From assembly GCA_000182565.2 (NCBI GenBank), contig KQ257451.1: a stretch of DNA of 64,000 bases. The stretch is one strand, 5' to 3'. Position 1 is the stretch's first letter. Each line of letters begins with the position of its first letter. Of this stretch, positions 5,718 through 29,375 are shown piece by piece. Below the pieces are notes generated by a model. It was not told the origin of the DNA, searched no databases, and was given only the letters and a program-made list of their open reading frames with translations. Position numbers and translations under genes: made by a program. This DNA is from Spizellomyces punctatus DAOM BR117 (lineage: Eukaryota).

Positions 5718-8700
5718 TCACCAGATGGGAATCTTCTCCGCAAAAACATACACCAGATCGTCCTCTCGAACTCGCAACGATGGCCTGGGATTCACAACCA
5801 CATATTTTACCAGGTTGTTGCGCTCCACCGTCCTCCTGTACAATCCCAATGCCAACGTTCGATGATTTCGGAGCAGAGACCTGAACAAGGCACCGTAGCT
5901 CACACCCGTGAAGCGGCCATCGCTTGGGAGCGATATCTGAAACAGATTGCCGTGGACTTGTGATTTGTCATCGGGATCGTTTTCTGGATGTGAGGGTTGA
6001 GGCGCCCTAACATGGGCAAGGTAATTGAACCACGATGGTGCGCTATCGGAACGAAACAAGGTGGTAGGGTGGGCTTCCGCAGTGGTAGTATGTTGTGGTG
6101 GTGTATGGGTTCCGTTGAAGATGAAATGCTTATTGACAAGTTAGCGATTACAATTTTGATCAAAAGGCCCACAAGTAACTGGGTAAAGTATGCACGCCTT
6201 ACCTTGAGAACATGGAGAAGATGGGGGTTATAATATGTCTGGCACAATAGAGAGGAAAACATGGCGTTGAAGAAAACGTGGCCGGCTACAAAGCACGGCA
6301 TCAGGTTGTGCCCTAATTTGCAGGTCAGTCAGAATGTTCCGTCAGTTCTCTTCAAAATCAGATAGGAAACCGTACCATGTACACCATCGTTATAATATTT
6401 CTCCCCATGACCGATGAACTTGGCATTTTCTGCATGGATGAATTCTACCATTGTGAAAATGTGCCTTTCATCTACGACCGATGTCATTGCCTGCACATTC
6501 AAAACGGACAAGAGGGCTTGGGCATCAGCCGCACGGTCTGCCACACTAATATATGGTTTAGTACACTAGCCAAGCAAACTGTTAAAACTATCATGAACAC
6601 GTACTTTGGTTGTTGAGGATTAGCCATGATGACGGCCCGCCAAGCTTTCTCCACTTTAGCCCTCTGCAAATCCTTTCTTAGCAGCGGTGTGCCAACAATA
6701 TAATAGACCTCCGTGAAAGCAGCCAATTTTATCCATTGATCGGCAGCAGGCTCCTCGGCGCAGAGGATCACAATAGGCCGTAGATCCTTGTGACGGAAAG
6801 GGGCGATGAAAAATGCCAGATTTTGAGGGAAAGTAGGACTCAAACTGCATATTAGCACATGATCCACGACACTATCCGGGACCGAGACTGTGGTGGGTTC
6901 TGTCGGCGCAACATCGGATTCCTTAAATTTTCCGCGTGGTAGCGCACTGCTTAGAATTGACGCGGCCGATGGCGGTTCTTGTTCAACGCTAGCAGTCGGT
7001 CGGGCCTTTTGCCCGAAACTGATCAAATCATCCTTCGCAGACGCCGATAAAGACCCTGACGAGAAAGATTTGACTGGCGGAGATCGTGATGGGTTTTCAG
7101 TTCGATCATCGTAAAATGATGCTCCTTGTTCCTGATCGCCATCCATTTGTGATATTCCCATATCCACAGTCGCTTCCTTGCTCCAGCTTGTACCAACACC
7201 ATTCCACAAAGATCCTACCGGTGTATCGGGTACGTCGTTTAGCACCACACCTTGAGTAGCAATGGTTTCGGCGACTGCACTTTGAGTGGTAATGATGTAC
7301 GCAGTTTCTCCGCCCTTGATGATATAGTCTTGGGGATTCATCACAATCCACGGTTCAGAGTCATCTGTCTTAAACCCGACAGCAAACAAGACAGCAAAGT
7401 GGACCATATAGACTCTTTCAGCAACCTCAGGGAAGCTCATTCCAGCGAAGGCTGAAGAAAGAGTCACCGCGTAAATCTCCATTTCTGCCCCATCCGCAAA
7501 CTCATCGACCCAGGCAGCCAACCGCTTCTTGCTTTTCAGCGCTTTCTTCACGGCGTCTGGGATGGATGTGGTAAGGAGGTAGAGGAGTGTGGAGAATCCC
7601 GGTGCCAAACAACTCTGTGCTAGCATTCCAAGTTTGAACTCATCAATGCACAGTATGTGATCCGCTGAAGATTGAATTTAGCTATGCTGAAGGTTATGAA
7701 GACAGGAAAGATCTCACGCACCTAAAATCTGAAAGTGGGTTTTGTTACCGGGCAATATGACTTGCGCAAAAATGTTGGCCTTTTTATGGAATTTTTTGAT
7801 GGCCTGCACGCTAATGTGAGCACCTTGTTTTCACCAACAAACAGTGTTCATCGCGACTTACAAGGGCGGTCATTACTGTCTCGGCATCGTCCTCAACGGC
7901 GGGCTTATCCGACAACCGTGAAGCAAGTACAAAGCATGCTTTCGCAGTGGAAGCCTGTGCCTTTTCTAAAGACCTGAAAGACATCGGACTCCCTTTTACA
8001 TACCGAACCCTACTCAAGTAGAGGGGATCGGCCTAAGGACAATGCATCGGTCAATAACAGCCGGCAATCATTGCACCATTATTGAACTCACGAGTAAGGC
8101 CTCCAATTCTTCGCTGGGTTCGTAGGGATTTAAAAGCACAACCTGCGTCGTCATCGTGGCTGCTCCATGATCCTAGATTCCAACTGGTGAGAACCCTCAC
8201 GCAATTTGAAAAGTGCTTACAACAAGGATATGCCAACCTCGCAAAAGAATTCCCACAGGAAGTCGCGTAATGATGTGATCTCAAAATTACCCGCAATTAG
8301 GACATGTGAGCGGTTGGTGGACTTGTATGAACGGTCGTATTTCGATTTATTACGAATCAATGCTAGAAGGTCGGCAAGATTTGTGGGAATAAATATCGCC
8401 CCCACTATCATCACGTACTATAATGCGTTTCGTAAGTGCTTATTGCAAGCAAACACAGGCATTCGTCAAACTTACCATGATGACAATGCGACTAAATGGA
8501 TTGTCTGGTATGATCTGAGTGCTCAACCCGGACGTTGAAGAGACTATACAACGTATTAATAAGAGGACCGACACACGTGAATGGTCGAAAGCCCATGGCT
8601 TTGAAATTCTTACCAGCGATTGTATAAAACACATCAAAAAAACTAAGATCATAATATTTCTGGAAATCCAGATGATATGATCGTTTAAGTTTCAGTACGG

Positions 8701-9694
8701 TATTCACATCCAATGCAAACTAACAGATTCCTGACCTGAATTATGTACAAACAAATATGAACCCAAGCAGTCACAGTGATTAAAGTATTGAAAATGGAGA
8801 GACCCAATCTCACGGCTTTCTGCGTGATCGGGGAGAAATTGAAGGCGACGTTTTTGCTATGGACGAAGCTATATCACTCTGAGAAGGTCCGTTATCACGG
8901 GACAGCACAGACTTACCTTGGCGTAAAGACCATCATAATGGATAAATGCATTCGCCAGAATCGTAAGGGGTAGAGGAACGCAAGAACCTGACTTGCATCA
9001 AGGTAATCTGACTTCGCGTCGTCCTTTTGAACGAACGCCCATATAACCGGCAACGTCGCCAAAAAGGACACCAGAGAGAACCATGAGACCAAGTCTGCCA
9101 TTGGATCCAAAGATAAATAAACCCTCGGTAGCCATTGGGTCAGTATCGCACAAGCAAGCACCAAGTCTGCAACAAAGAGACCATCGGGCGGGGGTGCTGG
9201 TCGCTGTGGAGGAAGATTTGGGTTACCTCGCTTTGGAGCAATGATATAGGTTGTCATGTACACAAAGAGCAGAACGAATGCAACATTCAACGCGGCATCG
9301 AGAACATGCCACCTATCGGATACAAAATTTGAGAAGCTGCCAGAAGACGTTAGAGGTTTTGCAGCTTTACTAACCATCGGCCCAGGGTTGTATAGTCCAG
9401 ATAGTATGCCCAGCGCTCCCGCGCCGAAGGCTGTCTGATTTTCTCCCCTACATTTCCTGTAATTCCCGTATCCAAGTAATGACAGTCATTGTCTTCATCT
9501 TCAGAGCTACTGTCACCCCTCTTGCGCGAGACGGGCCCGTCGTCGAAATTACGTCCAGGTCGTGCTCTTGCTGTGGGTTTTTTTAGCCATTTCTTCCCGG
9601 ATGGTGACCAGACCGGATGAACTCCTTTGGTCTTGGGAGCAGGAGGCCGAGAAGACACACCTGCCGATGCGAGCAGTGGTTGACGTTCTGCCAT
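5718..9694 (-). CDS. Slo/BK-family (KCNMA1/KCNT-like) channel with tandem RCK domains and a non-canonical pore motif (multi-exon)
   Basis: Transmembrane helices, S6-linker PTNLADLLALIRNKSKYDRSY, RCK1 HVLIAGN, MLAQSCLAPGFSTLLYLL, EIYAVTLSSAFAGMSF, RCK2 DHVLIC, C-terminal LGLYR...YVVVNP...DDLVYV. Confidence 0.88.
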
Positions 9695-9824
9695 GTCTTG
9701 CTGTAGGCGTCGTCAACGTGAAGAAGGGCAAGCAGGTATCTTTTTCAAGCCGATGGGTTAGGTAAACCAAAGATCGCTTATAGCCACGTGATTTGCGGTC
9801 AGGACGCCGTGCGTTTCAAGGATC

Positions 9825-10178
9825 ATGTCCCTTATGCATGCCGTGAGGGAAGAAGGGTTACGACTTTTCGACTTTCTGGCGCGGATAAGGTGGCAAGACT
9901 TGCATGATAGTCTGGATGGCCGCGGCGACGATGTGCCAGACCCTGATCCGAAGGGCGATGAGGAGGGAGGTGAGGATGACGAGAGCGACGACGACCGGAG
10001 TGGGTCGTCCAGGCGCCGGAAGCGCCGGCACAAGAGGTCTCGGCTTCAGCGTGCTGGAGCGAAGGATCCGGTCGTCGATAGCACCGCCAAGGTTCAAGGT
10101 TGGCTTGCTCATGTAATCCAACCGGAAGGCCCAGGCGCTGCTCCTGGAGCGGAGGATCTTCCTCCCTTCGCGTCGTGA
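9825..10178 (+). CDS. Small orphan protein (117 aa) with an acidic tract followed by an Arg/Lys-rich motif (RRRKRRHKRSR)
   Basis: ATG-initiated intronless ORF ~130 bp from the divergent channel ATG, matching the head-to-head layout of other genes here. CACGTG lies at 9785-9790. No family recognised. Confidence 0.5.
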   Translation: MSLMHAVREEGLRLFDFLARIRWQDLHDSLDGRGDDVPDPDPKGDEEGGEDDESDDDRSGSSRRRKRRHKRSRLQRAGAKDPVVDSTAKVQGWLAHVIQPEGPGAAPGAEDLPPFAS

Positions 10179-10266
10179 TCGTTGGGGCCACCCGACTTTC
10201 CGTCCTCCAGGTAAGTATCGAGGTAAGTATGGTCTCTCCTTCCCGAAGAGGACGTGGTAGAAACTA

Positions 10267-10472
10267 CACAGCGCAGTGGCCTAGCGGCTGGGCGAATCTG
10301 TGGGGCCACGCTGAGGGAAGCCGATAAGTCGCGCGATACGGTAGCAAGTTCACAGCGCAGTGGCCTAGCGGCTGGGCGAATCTGTGGCGCCGTACACCCG
10401 GTGTTATTCCCGAAGGACGTGGTAGAAACTACACAGCGCGGTGGCCTAGCGGCTGGGCGAATCTGTGGCGCC
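10267..10472 (+). repeat. Three near-identical 41-nt direct repeats (10267-10307, 10351-10391, 10432-10472) with 43- and 40-nt linkers
   Basis: Consensus CACAGCGC(A/G)GTGGCCTAGCGGCTGGGCGAATCTGTGG(G/C)GCC. Copies 1 and 3 also share the upstream TTCCCGAAG(AG)GACGTGGTAGAAACTA. Confidence 0.95.
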
Positions 10473-10542
10473 ATGCATTGTACTTTTGGAAGCAGGCGAC
10501 TCTCGGGAGCACTTTGGCCGTTGAGAGTTTTCTTTCAACGGT

Positions 10543-10619
10543 GGAGGTGTAATGCAGCTGTACCCGTCCCAAGCCGGGGGCTCGTTTCTCCATGAAATGG
10601 GAATGCAGAGGGCATCTTC
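10543..10619 (+). ncRNA. Twister self-cleaving ribozyme, P1 type, with a P5 stem
   Basis: P1 GGAGGUG/CAUCUUC; UAA (10550-10552); P2 UGC/GCA; P4 CCCG/CGGG closing loop UCCCAAGC; GAGGG at 10608-10612. Pseudoknot partners CCC/GGG and GC/GC are present. P5 CUCGUUUC/GAAAUGGG. Matches the twister consensus as I recall it. Confidence 0.88.
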
Positions 10620-10865
10620 AAGTGTGGTCTAACATGTTGGGTCTAAATGTGTATTATCGGAACCGAAACGCGAGACTTCCAAGCTTTTGCGTTTTCAATA
10701 CATTTGGACTTGTTGCAGACGGTGCTTGTTATTCAAATGCCTTTTGTTTTAACGCCCTCTTCCAGACGCCTCGCAACGACCAAGAAATAGCAATTAAATG
10801 TGCTGAGGAATTGTCACAAATTTATATTGTCGAGTAGTTACATCACGTCCATCTAAATAGGGGCA

Positions 10866-13800
10866 CTATGCAAACTCCTCGGTCGTTGGAACGGGAGTTA
10901 TTTTCCATATCCTTTTGGCATAATCTTGAATGGATCTGCGCGATGTGTAACGTCAAAGAGACATCCAACGCGGTTCAAACGGTCAATTGCTAAATACCTA
11001 TCAGAACTGAATTTCCCCATGCTTGCAGCAGCTGTGATGCACTTCTTGGCCCATGCAGACTTGTTCTTAAAAGCTGCATCGACGCGTTCCATCGCCTCCA
11101 AGTCTGTGTACGACCAATTAATACCCAATGATACTTGAAGTTACGCTTTAAAATCAATTCAATCTTACATGGTGTAAAGTCCTTGCTTAACAAATAGTAA
11201 TCGGAGCGAAGGGTGCCTAAGATCACATTCGAATCGATAAGAGCTTCCTCCGCGGCCTTGTTACTAAAGTGCGAGCCTTACCGAGAAGAGGCTCAAATAT
11301 GACCGAGTCCCCGTAGCGACCCGATTGAATGCTTTTGATGACACCTTGAAGCTTGGCATCCATTGCGACGTTGTGATACATTTGGTGATGCCGGATGTCC
11401 TCCACCTCAGCTGTCAGAGCGCCAAAGAAAAAAATGTTGTCCTTGCCAACTTCTTCGCCGATCTCAATGTTGGCTGAACAGGAGGAAAAGTCAGTATGCA
11501 ATGGAGCCCCATAGCAATTCAATCATCAAATGTGCACCTCCATCAACCGTTCCCAGGATCAATCCTCCGTTTAGTACAAATTTCCTGCATGTTGGGAATT
11601 AGTCCGACTCGAAAACACAAGATGAAAGGAGTCCAGATTGCCCCGCGTTCCTTACATGTTAGATGTGCCCGAAGCTTCAGTTCCAGCTGTTGAGATATGC
11701 TGGGAAAGATCACTTGCCGGAATTAAGATCTCGGCAACAGAGACATTGTAGTTGGGGATAAAAATAAGCTTGAGGTATTCAGATGTCTGTGGGTCCGCAT
11801 TCACAACATTCGCCACGCTGGTGATCAGCTTGATAATGAGCTTTGCAGTGTAGTAACCTGCGCTAACGAGTGAATGGGCAACTCTTTTGACAAATTACCA
11901 TATCAGCGGAAATAACAATACTGACCTGGCGCAGCCTTGCCCGCAAAGATCACTTTTTGGAAGGACATGTGAGCGATGCTTCCATTGCCAAGCTACAGGC
12001 CATATCACATACCGACTCGCGGAACGACTTTTTCCAATTCCGCCTTGCTCATACTCTTCAGTTTCTCATACCGATGAATGACGCCAAAGATATTCATGTG
12101 CTGACGCTTATATTCGTGCAAACGCTTGCATTGCACGTCGAAAAGCGCATCAGGTGAGAGTGTCACACCGGTAACATCCTTGACATACTCTGCCAATCTG
12201 ATTTTGTTCTTGTACTTGATGTCCATGAACCTGTTCTGAAAGCCCACGTCATCGGCAAATGCTTTGATTTTGTCCAATTGAGACAAATCCTTTAACCAAG
12301 CAGTTCCCCCCAACTTCTCGGAAATGAGGGTACTCAACCCAGGGTTTGCTTGGTGCAGCCACCTTCTCGGGGTAACACCATTGGTCACGTTGACAAATTT
12401 CTCTTTACCAAAGAACTCAACGAAGTCAGCGAATATTGTTGTCTTCACAAGTTCAGAATGAAGCTCAGCAACACCGTTAACGTGATGGCTTCCGATCGCT
12501 GCAAGGTGCGCCATCCTCACATACTGAGGGTGTCCTTCTTCAATGACAGACATGCGCCGCAGCCTGTCTCTGTCACCCGGGAACAACTTTTCCACACGTT
12601 GTAGGAAGTAGAGGTTGAGCTCAAAAATAATCATCATGTGACGAGGAAGTAAGTCTGAGATCAAGGGAACTGCCCATTTCTCCAGAGCTTCGGGCAAAAC
12701 TGTGTGGTTGGTGTACGAATATGTGTGCGTCACTATATCCCATGCCTCGTCCCACGTAAGTCCCTCCTCGTCAATCAAAATTCGCTGCAGCTCGACAATG
12801 GAGAGGGTAGGATGCGTATCGTTCAATTGAATGGACACCTGCTGGGGGAATTCTGACCAAGGTCGGGATGTCTTCTTGAAACGCCGAATGATATCTTGCA
12901 ACGTTGCGGAAACAAAGAAGTACTGCTGCTTGAGACGCAGGACTTTGCCGACCATATGGTTATCGTTCGGATACAAGACACTTGTAATGTTTTCGGCTGC
13001 CTTCTGCTCCTCCACACTCTTATCATAGTTGCCCTCGTTGAAGCTGACGTAGGGACGCGTTCAGTGTTTGCAACAAAGCTACAAGACTTACATGGCAGAA
13101 ACATGAATGGGCTAACTGAGGATGGCTCACCTTGCAAAGTCAAACTCCTTCTTCGGCTTACTTGACCAGAGGCGGATGTTGATGCAATTCTTGGTTTGGA
13201 ACCCAGGAATAGGATAATCATTTGCGACCGCGACAACCTTTTCGCCTCCCTCCCATCGATACCGTGTTTGTCCACTAACGTCTACATATTTTTCAACGTA
13301 CCCGCGGAAGCGAACATCATACGAGACATCCAGACGTTGAATTTCCCACGGGTTTCCAAACGTGAGCCAGTAATCAGGGTACTCTGTTTGGTACCCATCC
13401 ACCAGCTGCATTCATGCAATATGATCACTGTTAGTATCCAAGGAGTAAAAAGCATCTGAAATTCTCTCCACCTTCTGTTGAAAGATTCCGTATTCATATC
13501 TGATCCCGTATCCCCTGGAAATCGTCAATGAGCAAGAGACACACATTCGCTTTTAAATAAAACCGCAGTGCACACCATGCAGGATAATCCAGAGTGGCCA
13601 AAGAGTCCATAAAACAAGCGGCCAATCGCCCCAAGCCCCCATTGCCCAATGCTGCATCAACCTCTTCATCGACAAGATCCTCAATTGTGAATCCAATACC
13701 ACCAATTGCGCGTTTATAGTGGTCCTTCAAATTCAAGTTCAACAAGGCATTATCAAGTGTTCGTCCGATCAGAAACTCGAGCGACATGTAATAGACGCGC

Positions 13801-14212
13801 TATTCATGGATGAGTTTGGTCCATGGGTAGTGGAGAGAGGGAACATCACAACAACAAACCTTCGGATCTTTCACACTATGGCAATGCTGTGTCGCATTCC
13901 ATCTGTCAATTAAATGGTCACGCACACTGCGGAAGGACAATAATCAACATATATCTAAGAGGCGCCACCATTAAAATTATGCTGAGCAACATAGGCCTAC
14001 CTGTGAGCGGTCGCTTGATATGCAGCAAATTGATCCATATTATAAGAGCTGCGGGCCAGGGTCTTTGTAGCATGACGTATAAAAGACTTCTGGATAGTTG
14101 CCTCATCGGTGCTCTCTTCTTTGCTAAACTCGTTCCAAATCTGCTCAGCCGCAGCCGGTGGAGCCCATGCGGGAGAATGACTCGGTCCAGTATGGCTTCT
14201 GCTTCTACTCAT
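10866..14212 (-). CDS. GPH1: Glycogen phosphorylase (multi-exon)
   Basis: [92 protein letters not shown]. Confidence 0.97.
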
Positions 14213-27543: not shown

Positions 27544-29375
27544 ATGGTGAGCTTCAACGCGCTCATAGCCCATGCTGAAAGTCAAGCAAGTCGTTTCCCT
27601 TATCGTTGTAGACGTTTGGTTTCATCATGTAGTCAGCAAAAGCCCGAAAATCTGCTCCCGGATCTTCCGCCGGCTCTCGAAGCGGCACTGCCAAATCAAA
27701 GCGGGATGCAAAGTCGGCCAAAGGCAAGGGGACTGAGGAAGGAGGGGAGGGGGGAAAATCCAAGGGCGATCTCGAAGCCGACCTCAAGAAGCTGACGGAT
27801 GAGCTCACTGCCGAGAGGGAAGAGAGGAATTACTTTCAGCTAGAGAGGGTAAGGCCTCGACGGTGATATCATGGCATCGTACAGTATAATTTATTACTTA
27901 CCGGACAGGACAAAGTAATGTCATTCTGGGATATTACTAAAAATGAGCTGTCGCAAATCAAATCGGAGCTTCTTAACAAGGATCGGGAGCTGGAGGAGCT
28001 GGAGGAGAAACATCAAGTTGAAATTAAAGTGAGTAGTGCAAACCGGCACTTGGTGTCAAGTCAATAGTACGAAGCGCTGGATCTCAACAAGGATTTTTTG
28101 CTTATAGGTGTATAAACAAAAAGTGAAGCATCTACTATATGAATACCAAAACAACGTCGCCCATCTCCAAGCGGATTCCGAAAAAGCTCTGCAACTAGAT
28201 CAAGAAGACCACCTCAATCGTGAACAACAGCTAAAACGAGATAAGCGCGCCCTCAAGCTAGAGTTAAAGGAATTTGAGCTTTCCCACGAAGATATCATAA
28301 AGAATCTAAAACAAAAGCATGACGAGGAGATCACAAAGATGAGAAACGACTTTGAACGACGGGCCAGGGAACTGCACGGCAAATATGAAAAGAAGATGAA
28401 GGTCGTTCGGGATGAGTTAGAGTTGAAACGGAAGAATGAGATCCATGAGATTGAAGAGCGAAAGAATGGACAGATTAATGCGCTAATGAAGAACCATGAT
28501 AAAGCCTTCGGAGAGATCAAGAACTACTACAATGATATCACTTTGAACAATCTGGCGTTAATCAATTCGTTAAAGGTATGACACCAAATGATGCTAGATT
28601 CCTATCAAAGTACCGTCAAATAACAATTGGAAAAACAGGAACAAGTCGAGGACATGAAAAAGAAGGAAGAGCGCAATGAGAAACAAATGGCCGACATTGC
28701 ATCCGAGAACAAGCGTCTCTCTGAACCTCTTCAAGCAGCCCTCTCCGAGTGCGAGAGTCTCAAACGTCAACTGCAGAACTATGAAAAAGACAAGCAATCC
28801 CTTCGCGACACCAAAGCACGCCTCAAGGTCTTAGAGGATCGGCACAAGGCGTTGTCTTGGGAACACGAAGTGCTCGAACAGCGATTCGAGCAAGTCCAAA
28901 AGGAGCGGGATGAGCTCTACGAAGGATTTGTCGATAGAATTGTGAGCGTACAACAAAAGACTGGATTCAAGAATTTGGTATTGGAAAAGAAAGTAGAGTC
29001 TTTGAAGGAAATGGTGGAGAAGCGGGATCTTCAGGTGAATGAAATCCTAAAAGCTACAAATCTCGAGCCGGGAGCAATGGCAGGCCTGACTAGGAGACTG
29101 GAGGAGGTCCTTGATGCCAAAAACAGGCAGATTAAAGAGCTCCAGTATGATCTGGCAAAGGTCACCAAGGTATGCTGGATGGCAGCAACCTATTCCCACT
29201 GGGCAGACCCTCTCTTAACCTTGTCATCTTTTTGCAGGCTCACAATGACATGATACGAACATATGAAGCCAAGCTCACAGAATTCTCAATACCAGTTGAG
29301 GAACTTGGGTTCAAACCTTTGATGATGTCCACAGGAGCGACATCGAATCCCGCTGGTCTAGTAGCGGCTCAATAA
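27544..29375 (+). CDS. GAS8: Growth arrest-specific 8 / dynein regulatory complex subunit 4
   Basis: [84 protein letters not shown]. Exon 1 appears to be the ATG alone. Confidence 0.94.

What the first reader, a model, noticed from the sequence alone, without database searches (positions are those of the whole stretch)
10543..10619. Complete twister ribozyme in a fungal intergenic/3'-UTR region
Seen: GGAGGUG-UAA-UGC-A-GC-UGUA-CCCG-UCCCAAGC-CGGG...P5 hairpin...GCA-GAGGG-CAUCUUC. All stems (P1 7 bp, P2, P4, P5 8 bp) and both pseudoknot partners (CCC/GGG, GC/GC) can form. Known: this is the P1-type twister architecture, with cleavage expected in the UA of UAA, between 10550 and 10551. Inference: it cuts the transcript of the upstream small ORF. 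No retroelement ORF is visible nearby, so it may be domesticated.
Basis: partly seen in the sequence, partly recalled or inferred. Interest (0 to 1): 0.9.

Follow-up and report, generated by a model that had tools for sequence, protein, structure and literature searches.

The report
Twister ribozyme motif in a chytrid
A complete copy of the known twister self-cutting RNA motif sits between two genes of a chytrid fungus, just after a short repeated RNA-like array, but whether it cuts in the cell and what for is untested.

Summary
Window 10543-10619 (+) carries every core element of a type-P1 twister ribozyme: P1, P2, P4, a P5 hairpin, both pseudoknots, and the catalytic A and G. There is no P3. 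Rfam twister-P1 is the only family hit in the 64 kb window (35.8 bits, E 4.6e-4). That is below the curated cut-off of 67.2. However, 18 of 18 twister-P1 hits in environmental control loci are also below it.

The host is a Spizellomyces chytrid, so "fungal" is correct. The "upstream small ORF" is weak as a gene. Its only relative is the tail of one hypothetical protein in a sister species. A related RNA contig carries a 10-nt indel inside it.

Between ORF and ribozyme lie three 81-84-nt tandem repeats with an invariant core. These repeats are conserved in the sister species and occur in RNA-library contigs.

No RNA contig covers the ribozyme, no homologous twister could be fetched, and no genome copy count was possible. 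Thermodynamic folding with the native 5' flank disfavours P1 and P2.

Verdict: a new, probably active member of a known ribozyme class. It most likely trims the + strand transcript at U10550/A10551. Interest is moderate.

The parts
10543..10619 (+). Twister ribozyme motif, type P1, without P3 and with a P5 hairpin. P1 10543-10549/10613-10619. L1 UAA 10550-10552 and GAGGG 10608-10612. P2 10553-10556/10604-10607. GC 10557-10558 (pseudoknot partner). Linker UGUA 10559-10562. P4 10563-10566/10575-10578. L4 UCCCAAGC 10567-10574. P5 10581-10588/10594-10601. AA 10602-10603.
   Evidence: Rfam RF03160 35.8 bits, full model length; pairings checked by script; MFE fold gives the same four helices.
10550..10551 (+). 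Predicted scissile bond U10550/A10551. A10551 is in the general-acid position and G10608 in the general-base position.
   Evidence: Position in the Rfam alignment. The roles of these positions come from PMC11662667, section 32 (read). Cleavage itself is not tested.
10519..10542 (+). Stable hairpin (CCGUUGAGAG / CUUUCAACGG arms) directly 5' of P1. It would lie near the 3' end of the upstream cleavage product.
   Evidence: Folds. Its function is inferred only.
10240..10472 (+). Three tandem units of 84 and 81 nt spacing. A 28-nt core is identical in all three copies (10276-10303, 10360-10387, 10441-10468), within a 37-nt stretch that has a single variable position. The flanks diverge and form a stem that changes on both sides between copies.
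   Evidence: TRF and repeat finder; alignment; exact 28-mer x3 against 0 in shuffles; folds. No Rfam family at E <= 10 apart from three chance-level hits, and no tRNA. The units are conserved in the Spizellomyces sp. 'palustris' protein model P0122 and present in RNA-library contigs with variant unit order.
9825..10178 (+). It is homologous only to residues 282-379 of the 506-aa hypothetical protein P0122.
   Evidence: BLASTP identity is 49% with 24% gaps. A 10-nt insertion occurs in a related contig.
10207..10228 (+). Two adjacent consensus 5' splice-site motifs (CCAG|GUAAGU at 10210/10211 and GAG|GUAAGU at 10222/10223).
   Evidence: Sequence. The chance-level Rfam U1 hit on the opposite strand is their complement. 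Contig X1 ends at 10222, but another contig reads through unspliced. Use as a splice site is not shown.
10866..14212 (-). Convergent glycogen phosphorylase gene (context). Its stop codon is at 10866-10868 and its introns are about 35-75 nt.
   Evidence: tblastn of P0002 on the window; translation; Pfam PF00343.
6499..9712 (-). Slo/BK-type potassium channel gene (context), with its likely start codon near 9690. It is divergent from the + strand ORF.
   Evidence: ORFs; Pfam PF03493 and PF22614.

Best explanation
10543-10619 (+) is a genuine member of the twister class of small self-cleaving ribozymes, in a nuclear intergenic region of a Spizellomyces chytrid.

A + strand transcript would run through the ORF-like region (9825-10178) and the three structured 81-84-nt repeats (10240-10472). 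The ribozyme would fold in that transcript as P1-P2-P4 plus P5, locked by the CCC/GGG and GC/GC pseudoknots. It would cut between U10550 and A10551.

The upstream RNA is then left without a poly(A) tail. It ends in a 2',3'-cyclic phosphate a few nucleotides after the 10519-10542 hairpin. The downstream piece carries almost the whole ribozyme and a 5'-OH. It would be antisense to the phosphorylase 3' end.

Shown here: the motif is complete and not due to chance, and RNA-library contigs exist over the ORF tail and the repeats. Inferred: the transcript is on the + strand, cleavage happens in vivo, and cleavage serves 3'-end formation or dampening of that transcript.
For: - Full-length twister-P1 alignment, 35.8 bits, E 4.6e-4 for the window against all families, and the only hit with E <= 1.
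- Every helix and both pseudoknots can form.
- None of the changes that lowered cleavage in the high-throughput assay is present. A at +1 and +2, the G of GAGGG, both pseudoknots, the fourth P4 pair and the L4 A are all intact. L2 length was found not to matter, and P5-bearing twisters all cleaved above 0.80. About 94% of tested candidates were active (PMC11662667, abstract and sections 32, 33, 35 read).
- The sub-threshold score is explained by the missing P3 and the 20-nt P5 insert. In controls, 14 of 15 metagenome loci with the same core pattern gave twister-P1 hits at the pattern site at 32.9-57.3 bits. All 18 twister-P1 hits in those loci were below 67.2, and several lie beside pistol or twister-sister ribozymes.
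- In 6 viral loci, 5 had sub-threshold pattern-site hits.
- RNA-library contigs cover 9953-10222 and 10181-10472.
Against: - The Rfam gathering score is not reached.
- No cleavage data exist.
- No RNA contig covers the ribozyme, and contigs give no strand.
- No homologous twister could be compared, so there is no covariation support.
- With the native 5' flank (start <= 10510), nearest-neighbour folding gives P1 probability 0.00 in 16 of 16 constructs and P2 <= 0.19 (MFE). These models ignore pseudoknots, and the competing duplex is no stronger than chance: 18.6% of 1000 shuffles and 34% of 53 GC-rich neighbouring windows do as well.
- PMC11662667 (section 35) reports that multiple fungal twister candidates were inactive in vitro.
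- A ribozyme-generated 5'-OH is a poor entry point for known termination exonucleases (recalled, not checked here).
Confidence: 0.55

Rival explanations
1. A structurally intact but biologically idle twister. It would be a relic carried by a duplicated or mobile DNA segment (ORF tail + repeats + ribozyme) that landed between the channel and phosphorylase genes. It may cut in vitro but has no role for the host.
For: - The GC-rich block (55-67% GC) runs from about 9900 to about 10620 and stops at the 3' end of the ribozyme, against about 40-46% beyond it.
- The window holds only the part homologous to residues 280-506 of P0122, while residues 1-279 are absent from all 64 kb.
- P0122 lies on a different contig (163,149 nt) from the sister species' phosphorylase (296,212 nt).
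- The number and order of repeat units vary between relatives.
- Eukaryotic twisters with a shown role belong to retrotransposons (PMC8501958, abstract and introduction read).
Against: - No target-site duplication, terminal repeats, poly(A) tail or reverse-transcriptase/endonuclease ORF was seen.
- The core shows no decay at all.
- The P0122 model may be an annotation fusion of two neighbouring genes. The Met of the 117-aa ORF is conserved, in which case nothing is truncated here.
- The repeat cores are conserved between species, which argues for constraint on at least part of the unit.
Confidence: 0.3
2. The ribozyme works for the downstream RNA. It would create a defined 5' end, as twister variants do for Perere-3 retrotransposons and as ribozymes do in the 5' UTRs of fungal RNA viruses, where cleavage permits translation.
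For: P1-type twisters leave nearly the whole ribozyme on the 3' product. Precedents: PMC8501958 (abstract read) and PMC13725137 (abstract and passages read).
Against: Downstream there are only about 250 nt before the convergent phosphorylase coding sequence. The only + strand frame there is a 94-codon stop-to-stop stretch with no support. No retroelement or viral gene is present.
Confidence: 0.07
3. A chance look-alike with no ribozyme fold.
For: The score is below Rfam's gathering cut-off. The folding energy is unremarkable, z -0.74.
Against: E is 4.6e-4 for the window against 4227 families, so about 1e-7 for this family alone (the division is mine). All invariant loop nucleotides plus four helices and two pseudoknots are in the right order. 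The core pattern occurs in 0 of 100 shuffles.
Confidence: 0.02

Closest known systems
Type-P1 twister ribozymes (Rfam RF03160; Roth et al. 2014, recalled and cited through PMC11662667 and PMC8501958)
   Same: The order of P1, UAA, P2, GC, P4 with the UCCCAAGC loop, AA, P2', GAGGG and P1' is the same. Both pseudoknots are present and the ends lie in P1. P2 (UGCA/UGCA) and P4 (CCCG/CGGG) are identical to environmental examples such as L020 and L008.
   Different: There is no P3 (a 4-nt linker instead) and a 21-nt P5 hairpin, a combination reported as uncommon (PMC11662667, section 33). The score is 35.8 bits, under the 67.2 cut-off. The host is a chytrid fungus. Bacterial and phage examples sit in clusters with pistol, hammerhead or twister-sister ribozymes; this one is solitary in 64 kb.
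[quoted passage not shown]
   Same: It is a eukaryotic nuclear twister embedded in a longer Pol II-type transcript, with the 5' strand of P1 supplied by upstream sequence.
   Different: No retrotransposon body, target-site duplication or multi-copy family is seen here. Anything it serves is more likely upstream than downstream.
Twister and hammerhead ribozymes in UTRs of fungal RNA viruses (PMC13725137)
   Same: A small ribozyme in a non-coding region of a fungal-associated transcript.
   Different: Those are in RNA virus genomes, mostly 5' UTRs. This one is in chromosomal DNA between two housekeeping-type genes on a 2.17-Mb contig.
3'-UTR self-cleaving ribozymes that lower mRNA levels, such as the rodent CLEC2 hammerhead (recalled, not checked here)
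   Same: A ribozyme downstream of an ORF would remove the poly(A) tail and so lower or redirect the RNA.
   Different: It belongs to a different ribozyme class, and the ORF here is doubtful as a gene.

Membership tests
Twister ribozyme (type P1) | [quoted passage not shown] | tested here: met
   P1 7 bp, P2 4 bp, P4 4 bp, all standard pairs. P3 is absent and P5 present; both are described as auxiliary in PMC11662667.
Twister ribozyme (type P1) | Highly conserved loop nucleotides: U-A-A at the cleavage site, GC after P2, the UCCCAAGC loop, AA before P2', and GAGGG. | tested here: met
   All are identical to the upper-case consensus positions of RF03160 in the alignment.
Twister ribozyme (type P1) | Two pseudoknots: L4 CCC with the GGG of GAGGG, and L4 GC with the GC after P2. 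| tested here: met
   C10568-70/G10610-12 by script. G10557-C10574 and C10558-G10573 were read from the sequence.
Twister ribozyme (type P1) | Covariance-model score at or above Rfam's gathering cut-off (an operational criterion, not a biochemical one). | tested here: not met
   35.8 against 67.2 bits. Control: all 18 twister-P1 hits in 15 environmental loci (31.5-57.3 bits) and 8 of 9 in 6 viral loci also fall below it.
Twister ribozyme (type P1) | Site-specific, Mg2+-dependent self-cleavage giving 2',3'-cyclic phosphate and 5'-OH ends. | not testable with these tools
   This needs a bench assay. The RNA contigs laid do not cover the site and cannot show ends.
Twister ribozyme (type P1) | Conservation with compensatory stem changes among homologous copies. 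| tested here: inconclusive
   No homologous copy could be fetched. No genome is held. The metagenome scan gave only bacterial or phage-type twisters. Viral scans for the P5-specific 21-mer and the repeat core gave 0. Only the P4 third pair differs from the Rfam consensus, and it does so on both sides (G-C to C-G).
Ribozyme-bearing retroelement (Perere-3-like, retrozyme, Penelope-like) | A ribozyme at the element boundary together with an RT/EN ORF, LTR-like repeats or a second ribozyme, plus target-site duplications. | tested here: not met
   There is one ribozyme hit in 64 kb. No RT/EN ORF lies nearby, and no flanking direct or inverted repeats other than the tandem array.

The most novel reading that the evidence does not exclude
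The ribozyme may be the 3' module of an undescribed chytrid genetic unit. The unit would consist of a PD-(D/E)XK-nuclease-like gene (full length in Spizellomyces sp. 'palustris'; only its tail here), an array of conserved, structured ~81-nt RNA units, a terminal hairpin and a twister. The unit would be duplicated or mobile between loci. The twister would release a non-polyadenylated RNA carrying the repeat array, so the array rather than the ORF would be the functional product.
Probability: 0.15. Interest if true: 0.65.

Novelty: new member of a known kind. Interest (0 to 1): 0.4.

Why it matters
Twister ribozymes number in the thousands, yet a biological role is shown for very few, namely the retrotransposon 5' processing in Schistosoma (PMC8501958). 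Fungal candidates are rare, and those assayed were reported inactive in vitro (PMC11662667, section 35).

This copy is flawless and solitary, in a tractable chytrid genus. It lies next to a transcribed, conserved repeat array. That makes it a simple test case for asking what a nuclear twister does in a eukaryote.

It is not a new kind of RNA. The full-text searches found no paper linking twister to chytrids or Spizellomyces. However, the species list of the original 2014 survey and all supplementary tables could not be read, so prior listing cannot be excluded.

Tried and rejected
- Whole-genome copy count: no genome is held for this window.
All are assembled contigs, and none covers 10484-10807, so nothing can be said about transcription or ends at the ribozyme. 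The X1 contig ends exactly at the GAG|GUAAGU site (10222), but no spliced joint or loose end was reported and an X4 contig reads through. This is not taken as evidence of splicing.
- Homologous twisters: the one metagenome scan returned 20 loci, all of bacterial or phage type. Viral scans for the repeat core and for a P4/P5-specific 21-mer gave 0.
- Repeats as a known RNA: no tRNA and no Rfam family beyond three chance-level hits, E 3.1-5.9. A resemblance to Pol III A/B boxes and a tRNA D-arm was seen by eye only and dropped.
- Repeats as coding sequence: the minus-strand 141-aa frame has no homolog, 0 of 153 candidates. The + frame hits only P0122, where identical nucleotides are read in two frames. 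P0123 and P0124 are unrelated repeat proteins.
- An 'anti-ribozyme' switch in the 5' flank: the competing duplex (-31.9 kcal/mol) is matched by 18.6% of shuffles, so it is not claimed.
- An intron hosting the ribozyme: local introns are 35-75 nt and no convincing 3' splice site was found, so it is not claimed.
- The PD-(D/E)XK assignment of P0122 residues 1-279 rests on ESM-Atlas likeness only. Pfam and PDB sequence searches gave nothing, so it remains a lead.

Full report
**1. Is it there?**

Yes. The 77 nt at 10543-10619 (+) read as reported. A script check shows the following:
- P1 of 7 bp, two of them G-U.
- The UAA loop strand.
- P2 of 4 bp (UGCA/UGCA).
- The GC dinucleotide, then a 4-nt linker in place of P3.
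- P4 of 4 bp closing the loop UCCCAAGC.
- An 8-bp P5 hairpin, then AA, the P2 return strand, GAGGG and the P1 return strand.
- CCC (10568-10570) can pair with GGG (10610-10612), and GC (10557-10558) with GC (10573-10574).

RNAfold on the 77-mer returns exactly these four helices as the MFE structure. The energy itself is ordinary: z -0.74, and 46 of 200 shuffles fold as well.

**2. Is it more than chance?**

At gathering thresholds the window has no Rfam hit. With E-value reporting, twister-P1 (RF03160) aligns over its full length at 10546-10616 with 35.8 bits. E is 2e-6 in a 281-nt search and 4.6e-4 for the whole 64 kb against 4227 families. It is the only hit with E <= 1. A 21-specified-base descriptor of the core matched once in the window and in none of 100 shuffles.

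The score loss comes from the deleted P3 and the 20-nt insertion that the model does not expect (alignment). As a control I scanned metagenomes with the same descriptor and obtained 20 loci.
- At gathering level only 3 of the 20 showed a twister at the pattern site, as type P5. Pistol and hammerhead ribozymes were nearby.
- I rescanned 15 of the remaining 17 at E <= 0.01; two were left out for the size limit. Of these, 14 of 15 had a twister-P1 hit at the pattern site, scoring 32.9-57.3 bits.
- All 18 twister-P1 hits in those loci were under 67.2.
- Six viral contigs behaved alike: 5 of 6 pattern sites were hit at 44.2-55.9 bits, and only 1 of 9 twister-P1 hits exceeded the cut-off.

The cut-off is therefore not informative for P3-less twisters. 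The window's score lies at the low end of that control range.

**3. Would it cut?**

The high-throughput study of natural twisters (PMC11662667; abstract and sections 32, 33 and 35 read) reports the following:
- About 94% of tested candidates were active.
- Imperfections in P1, P2 and P4 are tolerated.
- L2 length is irrelevant.
- All P5-bearing examples cleaved above 0.80 (small sample).
- Activity is sensitive at the A after the cut, the next A, the G that opens GAGGG, both pseudoknots, the fourth P4 pair and an L4 adenine.

All of these sensitive positions are canonical here.

Against this, the same paper says that multiple fungal candidates were inactive in vitro. In addition, nearest-neighbour folding with the native 5' flank removes P1 (probability 0.00 in 16 of 16 constructs starting at or before 10510) and nearly removes P2 (<= 0.19) (MFE). 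That calculation ignores pseudoknots. The competing upstream duplex is no better than 18.6% of 1000 shuffles or 34% of 53 GC-rich neighbouring windows. I treat it as a caveat, not as a designed switch.

**4. Where is it?**

The phosphorylase fragment is 98% identical to that of Spizellomyces sp. 'palustris', and the next named hits are other chytrids. The window also carries a GAS8-type flagellar gene. The host is therefore a Spizellomyces chytrid, and the contig is 2,165,103 nt long.

The ribozyme lies in a ~1.17-kb gap between two minus-strand genes:
- A Slo/BK-type K+ channel gene, with its start near 9690.
- Glycogen phosphorylase, with its stop at 10866-10868 and introns of 35-75 nt.

On the + strand the gap holds, in order:
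- A 117-codon ORF (9825-10178).
- Two adjacent consensus 5' splice-site motifs (10207-10228).
- Three tandem units (10240-10472).
- A hairpin (10519-10542).
- The ribozyme.

GC content is 55-67% from about 9900 to 10620 and falls to about 40-44% right after the ribozyme.

**5. The 'upstream small ORF'**

The ORF has no Pfam domain. It found only itself among proteins of 64-205 aa.

Translating the repeat region and searching 1.84 billion representatives gave one real relative, P0122. This is a 506-aa hypothetical protein of Spizellomyces sp. 'palustris'. The window matches its residues 280-506 only (9819-10477), and residues 1-279 are nowhere in the 64 kb.
- The ORF part is 49% identical with 24% gaps.
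- The repeat cores are near-identical and are read in two different frames within P0122. They are therefore conserved as nucleic acid, not as protein.
- A related RNA-library contig carries a 10-nt insertion inside the ORF (a single contig at depth 3).

By ESM-Atlas likeness, the missing N-terminal part of P0122 looks like fungal PD-(D/E)XK-nuclease-like families: features 0.95 and structure TM 0.68-0.73. Pfam and PDB sequence searches give nothing.

P0122's contig differs from that of the sister species' phosphorylase. There are two readings. Either the window holds a truncated or relocated copy, or the P0122 model fuses two genes. The ORF's Met is conserved, which fits the second reading.

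**6. The repeats**

Three units have a 28-nt core identical in every copy, within a 37-nt stretch with one variable position, and diverged spacers. The predicted enclosing stem changes on both sides between copies.

They match no Rfam family or tRNA. Contigs from three root metatranscriptome libraries of one study, and one further library, cover 9953-10472. These contigs show variant unit order and differences confined to the spacers. Strand and RNA ends cannot be read from contigs.

**7. Mechanism and rivals**

Best reading (0.55): a real twister acts in cis on a + strand transcript of the ORF-like region and repeats. It defines that transcript's 3' end at U10550 and detaches the downstream part, which would be antisense to phosphorylase.

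Rivals:
- Idle passenger of a duplicated or mobile segment (0.30).
- 5'-end maker for a downstream RNA (0.07). This is disfavoured because only about 250 nt with no supported ORF follow.
- Chance (0.02).

**8. Comparison and novelty**

This is a new member of a known class. It has an uncommon but described auxiliary-stem combination, a rarely represented host group, and is solitary rather than clustered.

Full-text searches found no paper joining twister with chytrids (0 papers). None of the 8 listed of 9 papers holding both 'Spizellomyces' and 'ribozyme' concerns twister, judging by title and abstract. The 2014 discovery paper, which predicted twisters in 'a fungus' (PMC11662667, section 35), and all supplements could not be read. 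Prior listing therefore cannot be excluded.

Noticed in passing
window 10240-10472 (+): Three 81-84-nt tandem units share an invariant core, with flanking stems that change on both sides between copies. They are conserved in Spizellomyces sp. 'palustris' (four units there) and present in root metatranscriptome contigs. They match no known RNA family.
   Followed up: partly
window 9819-10477 (+) versus P0122: The region is homologous only to the C-terminal 227 residues of a 506-aa hypothetical protein. That protein's N-terminal part looks like a fungal PD-(D/E)XK-nuclease-like domain by ESM-Atlas likeness. In the sister species the gene lies on a different contig from phosphorylase.
   Followed up: partly
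window 10207-10228 (+): Two adjacent perfect 5' splice-site motifs, 12 nt complementary to the U1 5' end, lie after the ORF stop. One RNA contig ends exactly at 10222 and another reads through.
   Followed up: partly
window 9900-10620: A GC-rich block (55-67%) sits in a 47% GC window and ends at the 3' edge of the ribozyme.
   Followed up: partly
window 28624-29250 (+): A GAS8/dynein-regulatory-complex-type domain (PF13851), a flagellar gene, consistent with a zoosporic fungus.
   Followed up: no
L006, L008, L013, L014, L023-L025 (metagenome and viral loci): Environmental and phage contigs carry several twisters together with pistol, twister-sister or hammerhead ribozymes within a few kb. Most twister-P1 hits fall below Rfam's gathering score.
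   Followed up: partly
window 6499-9712 (-): A Slo/BK-type calcium-activated potassium channel gene (PF03493, PF22614) in a chytrid.
   Followed up: no
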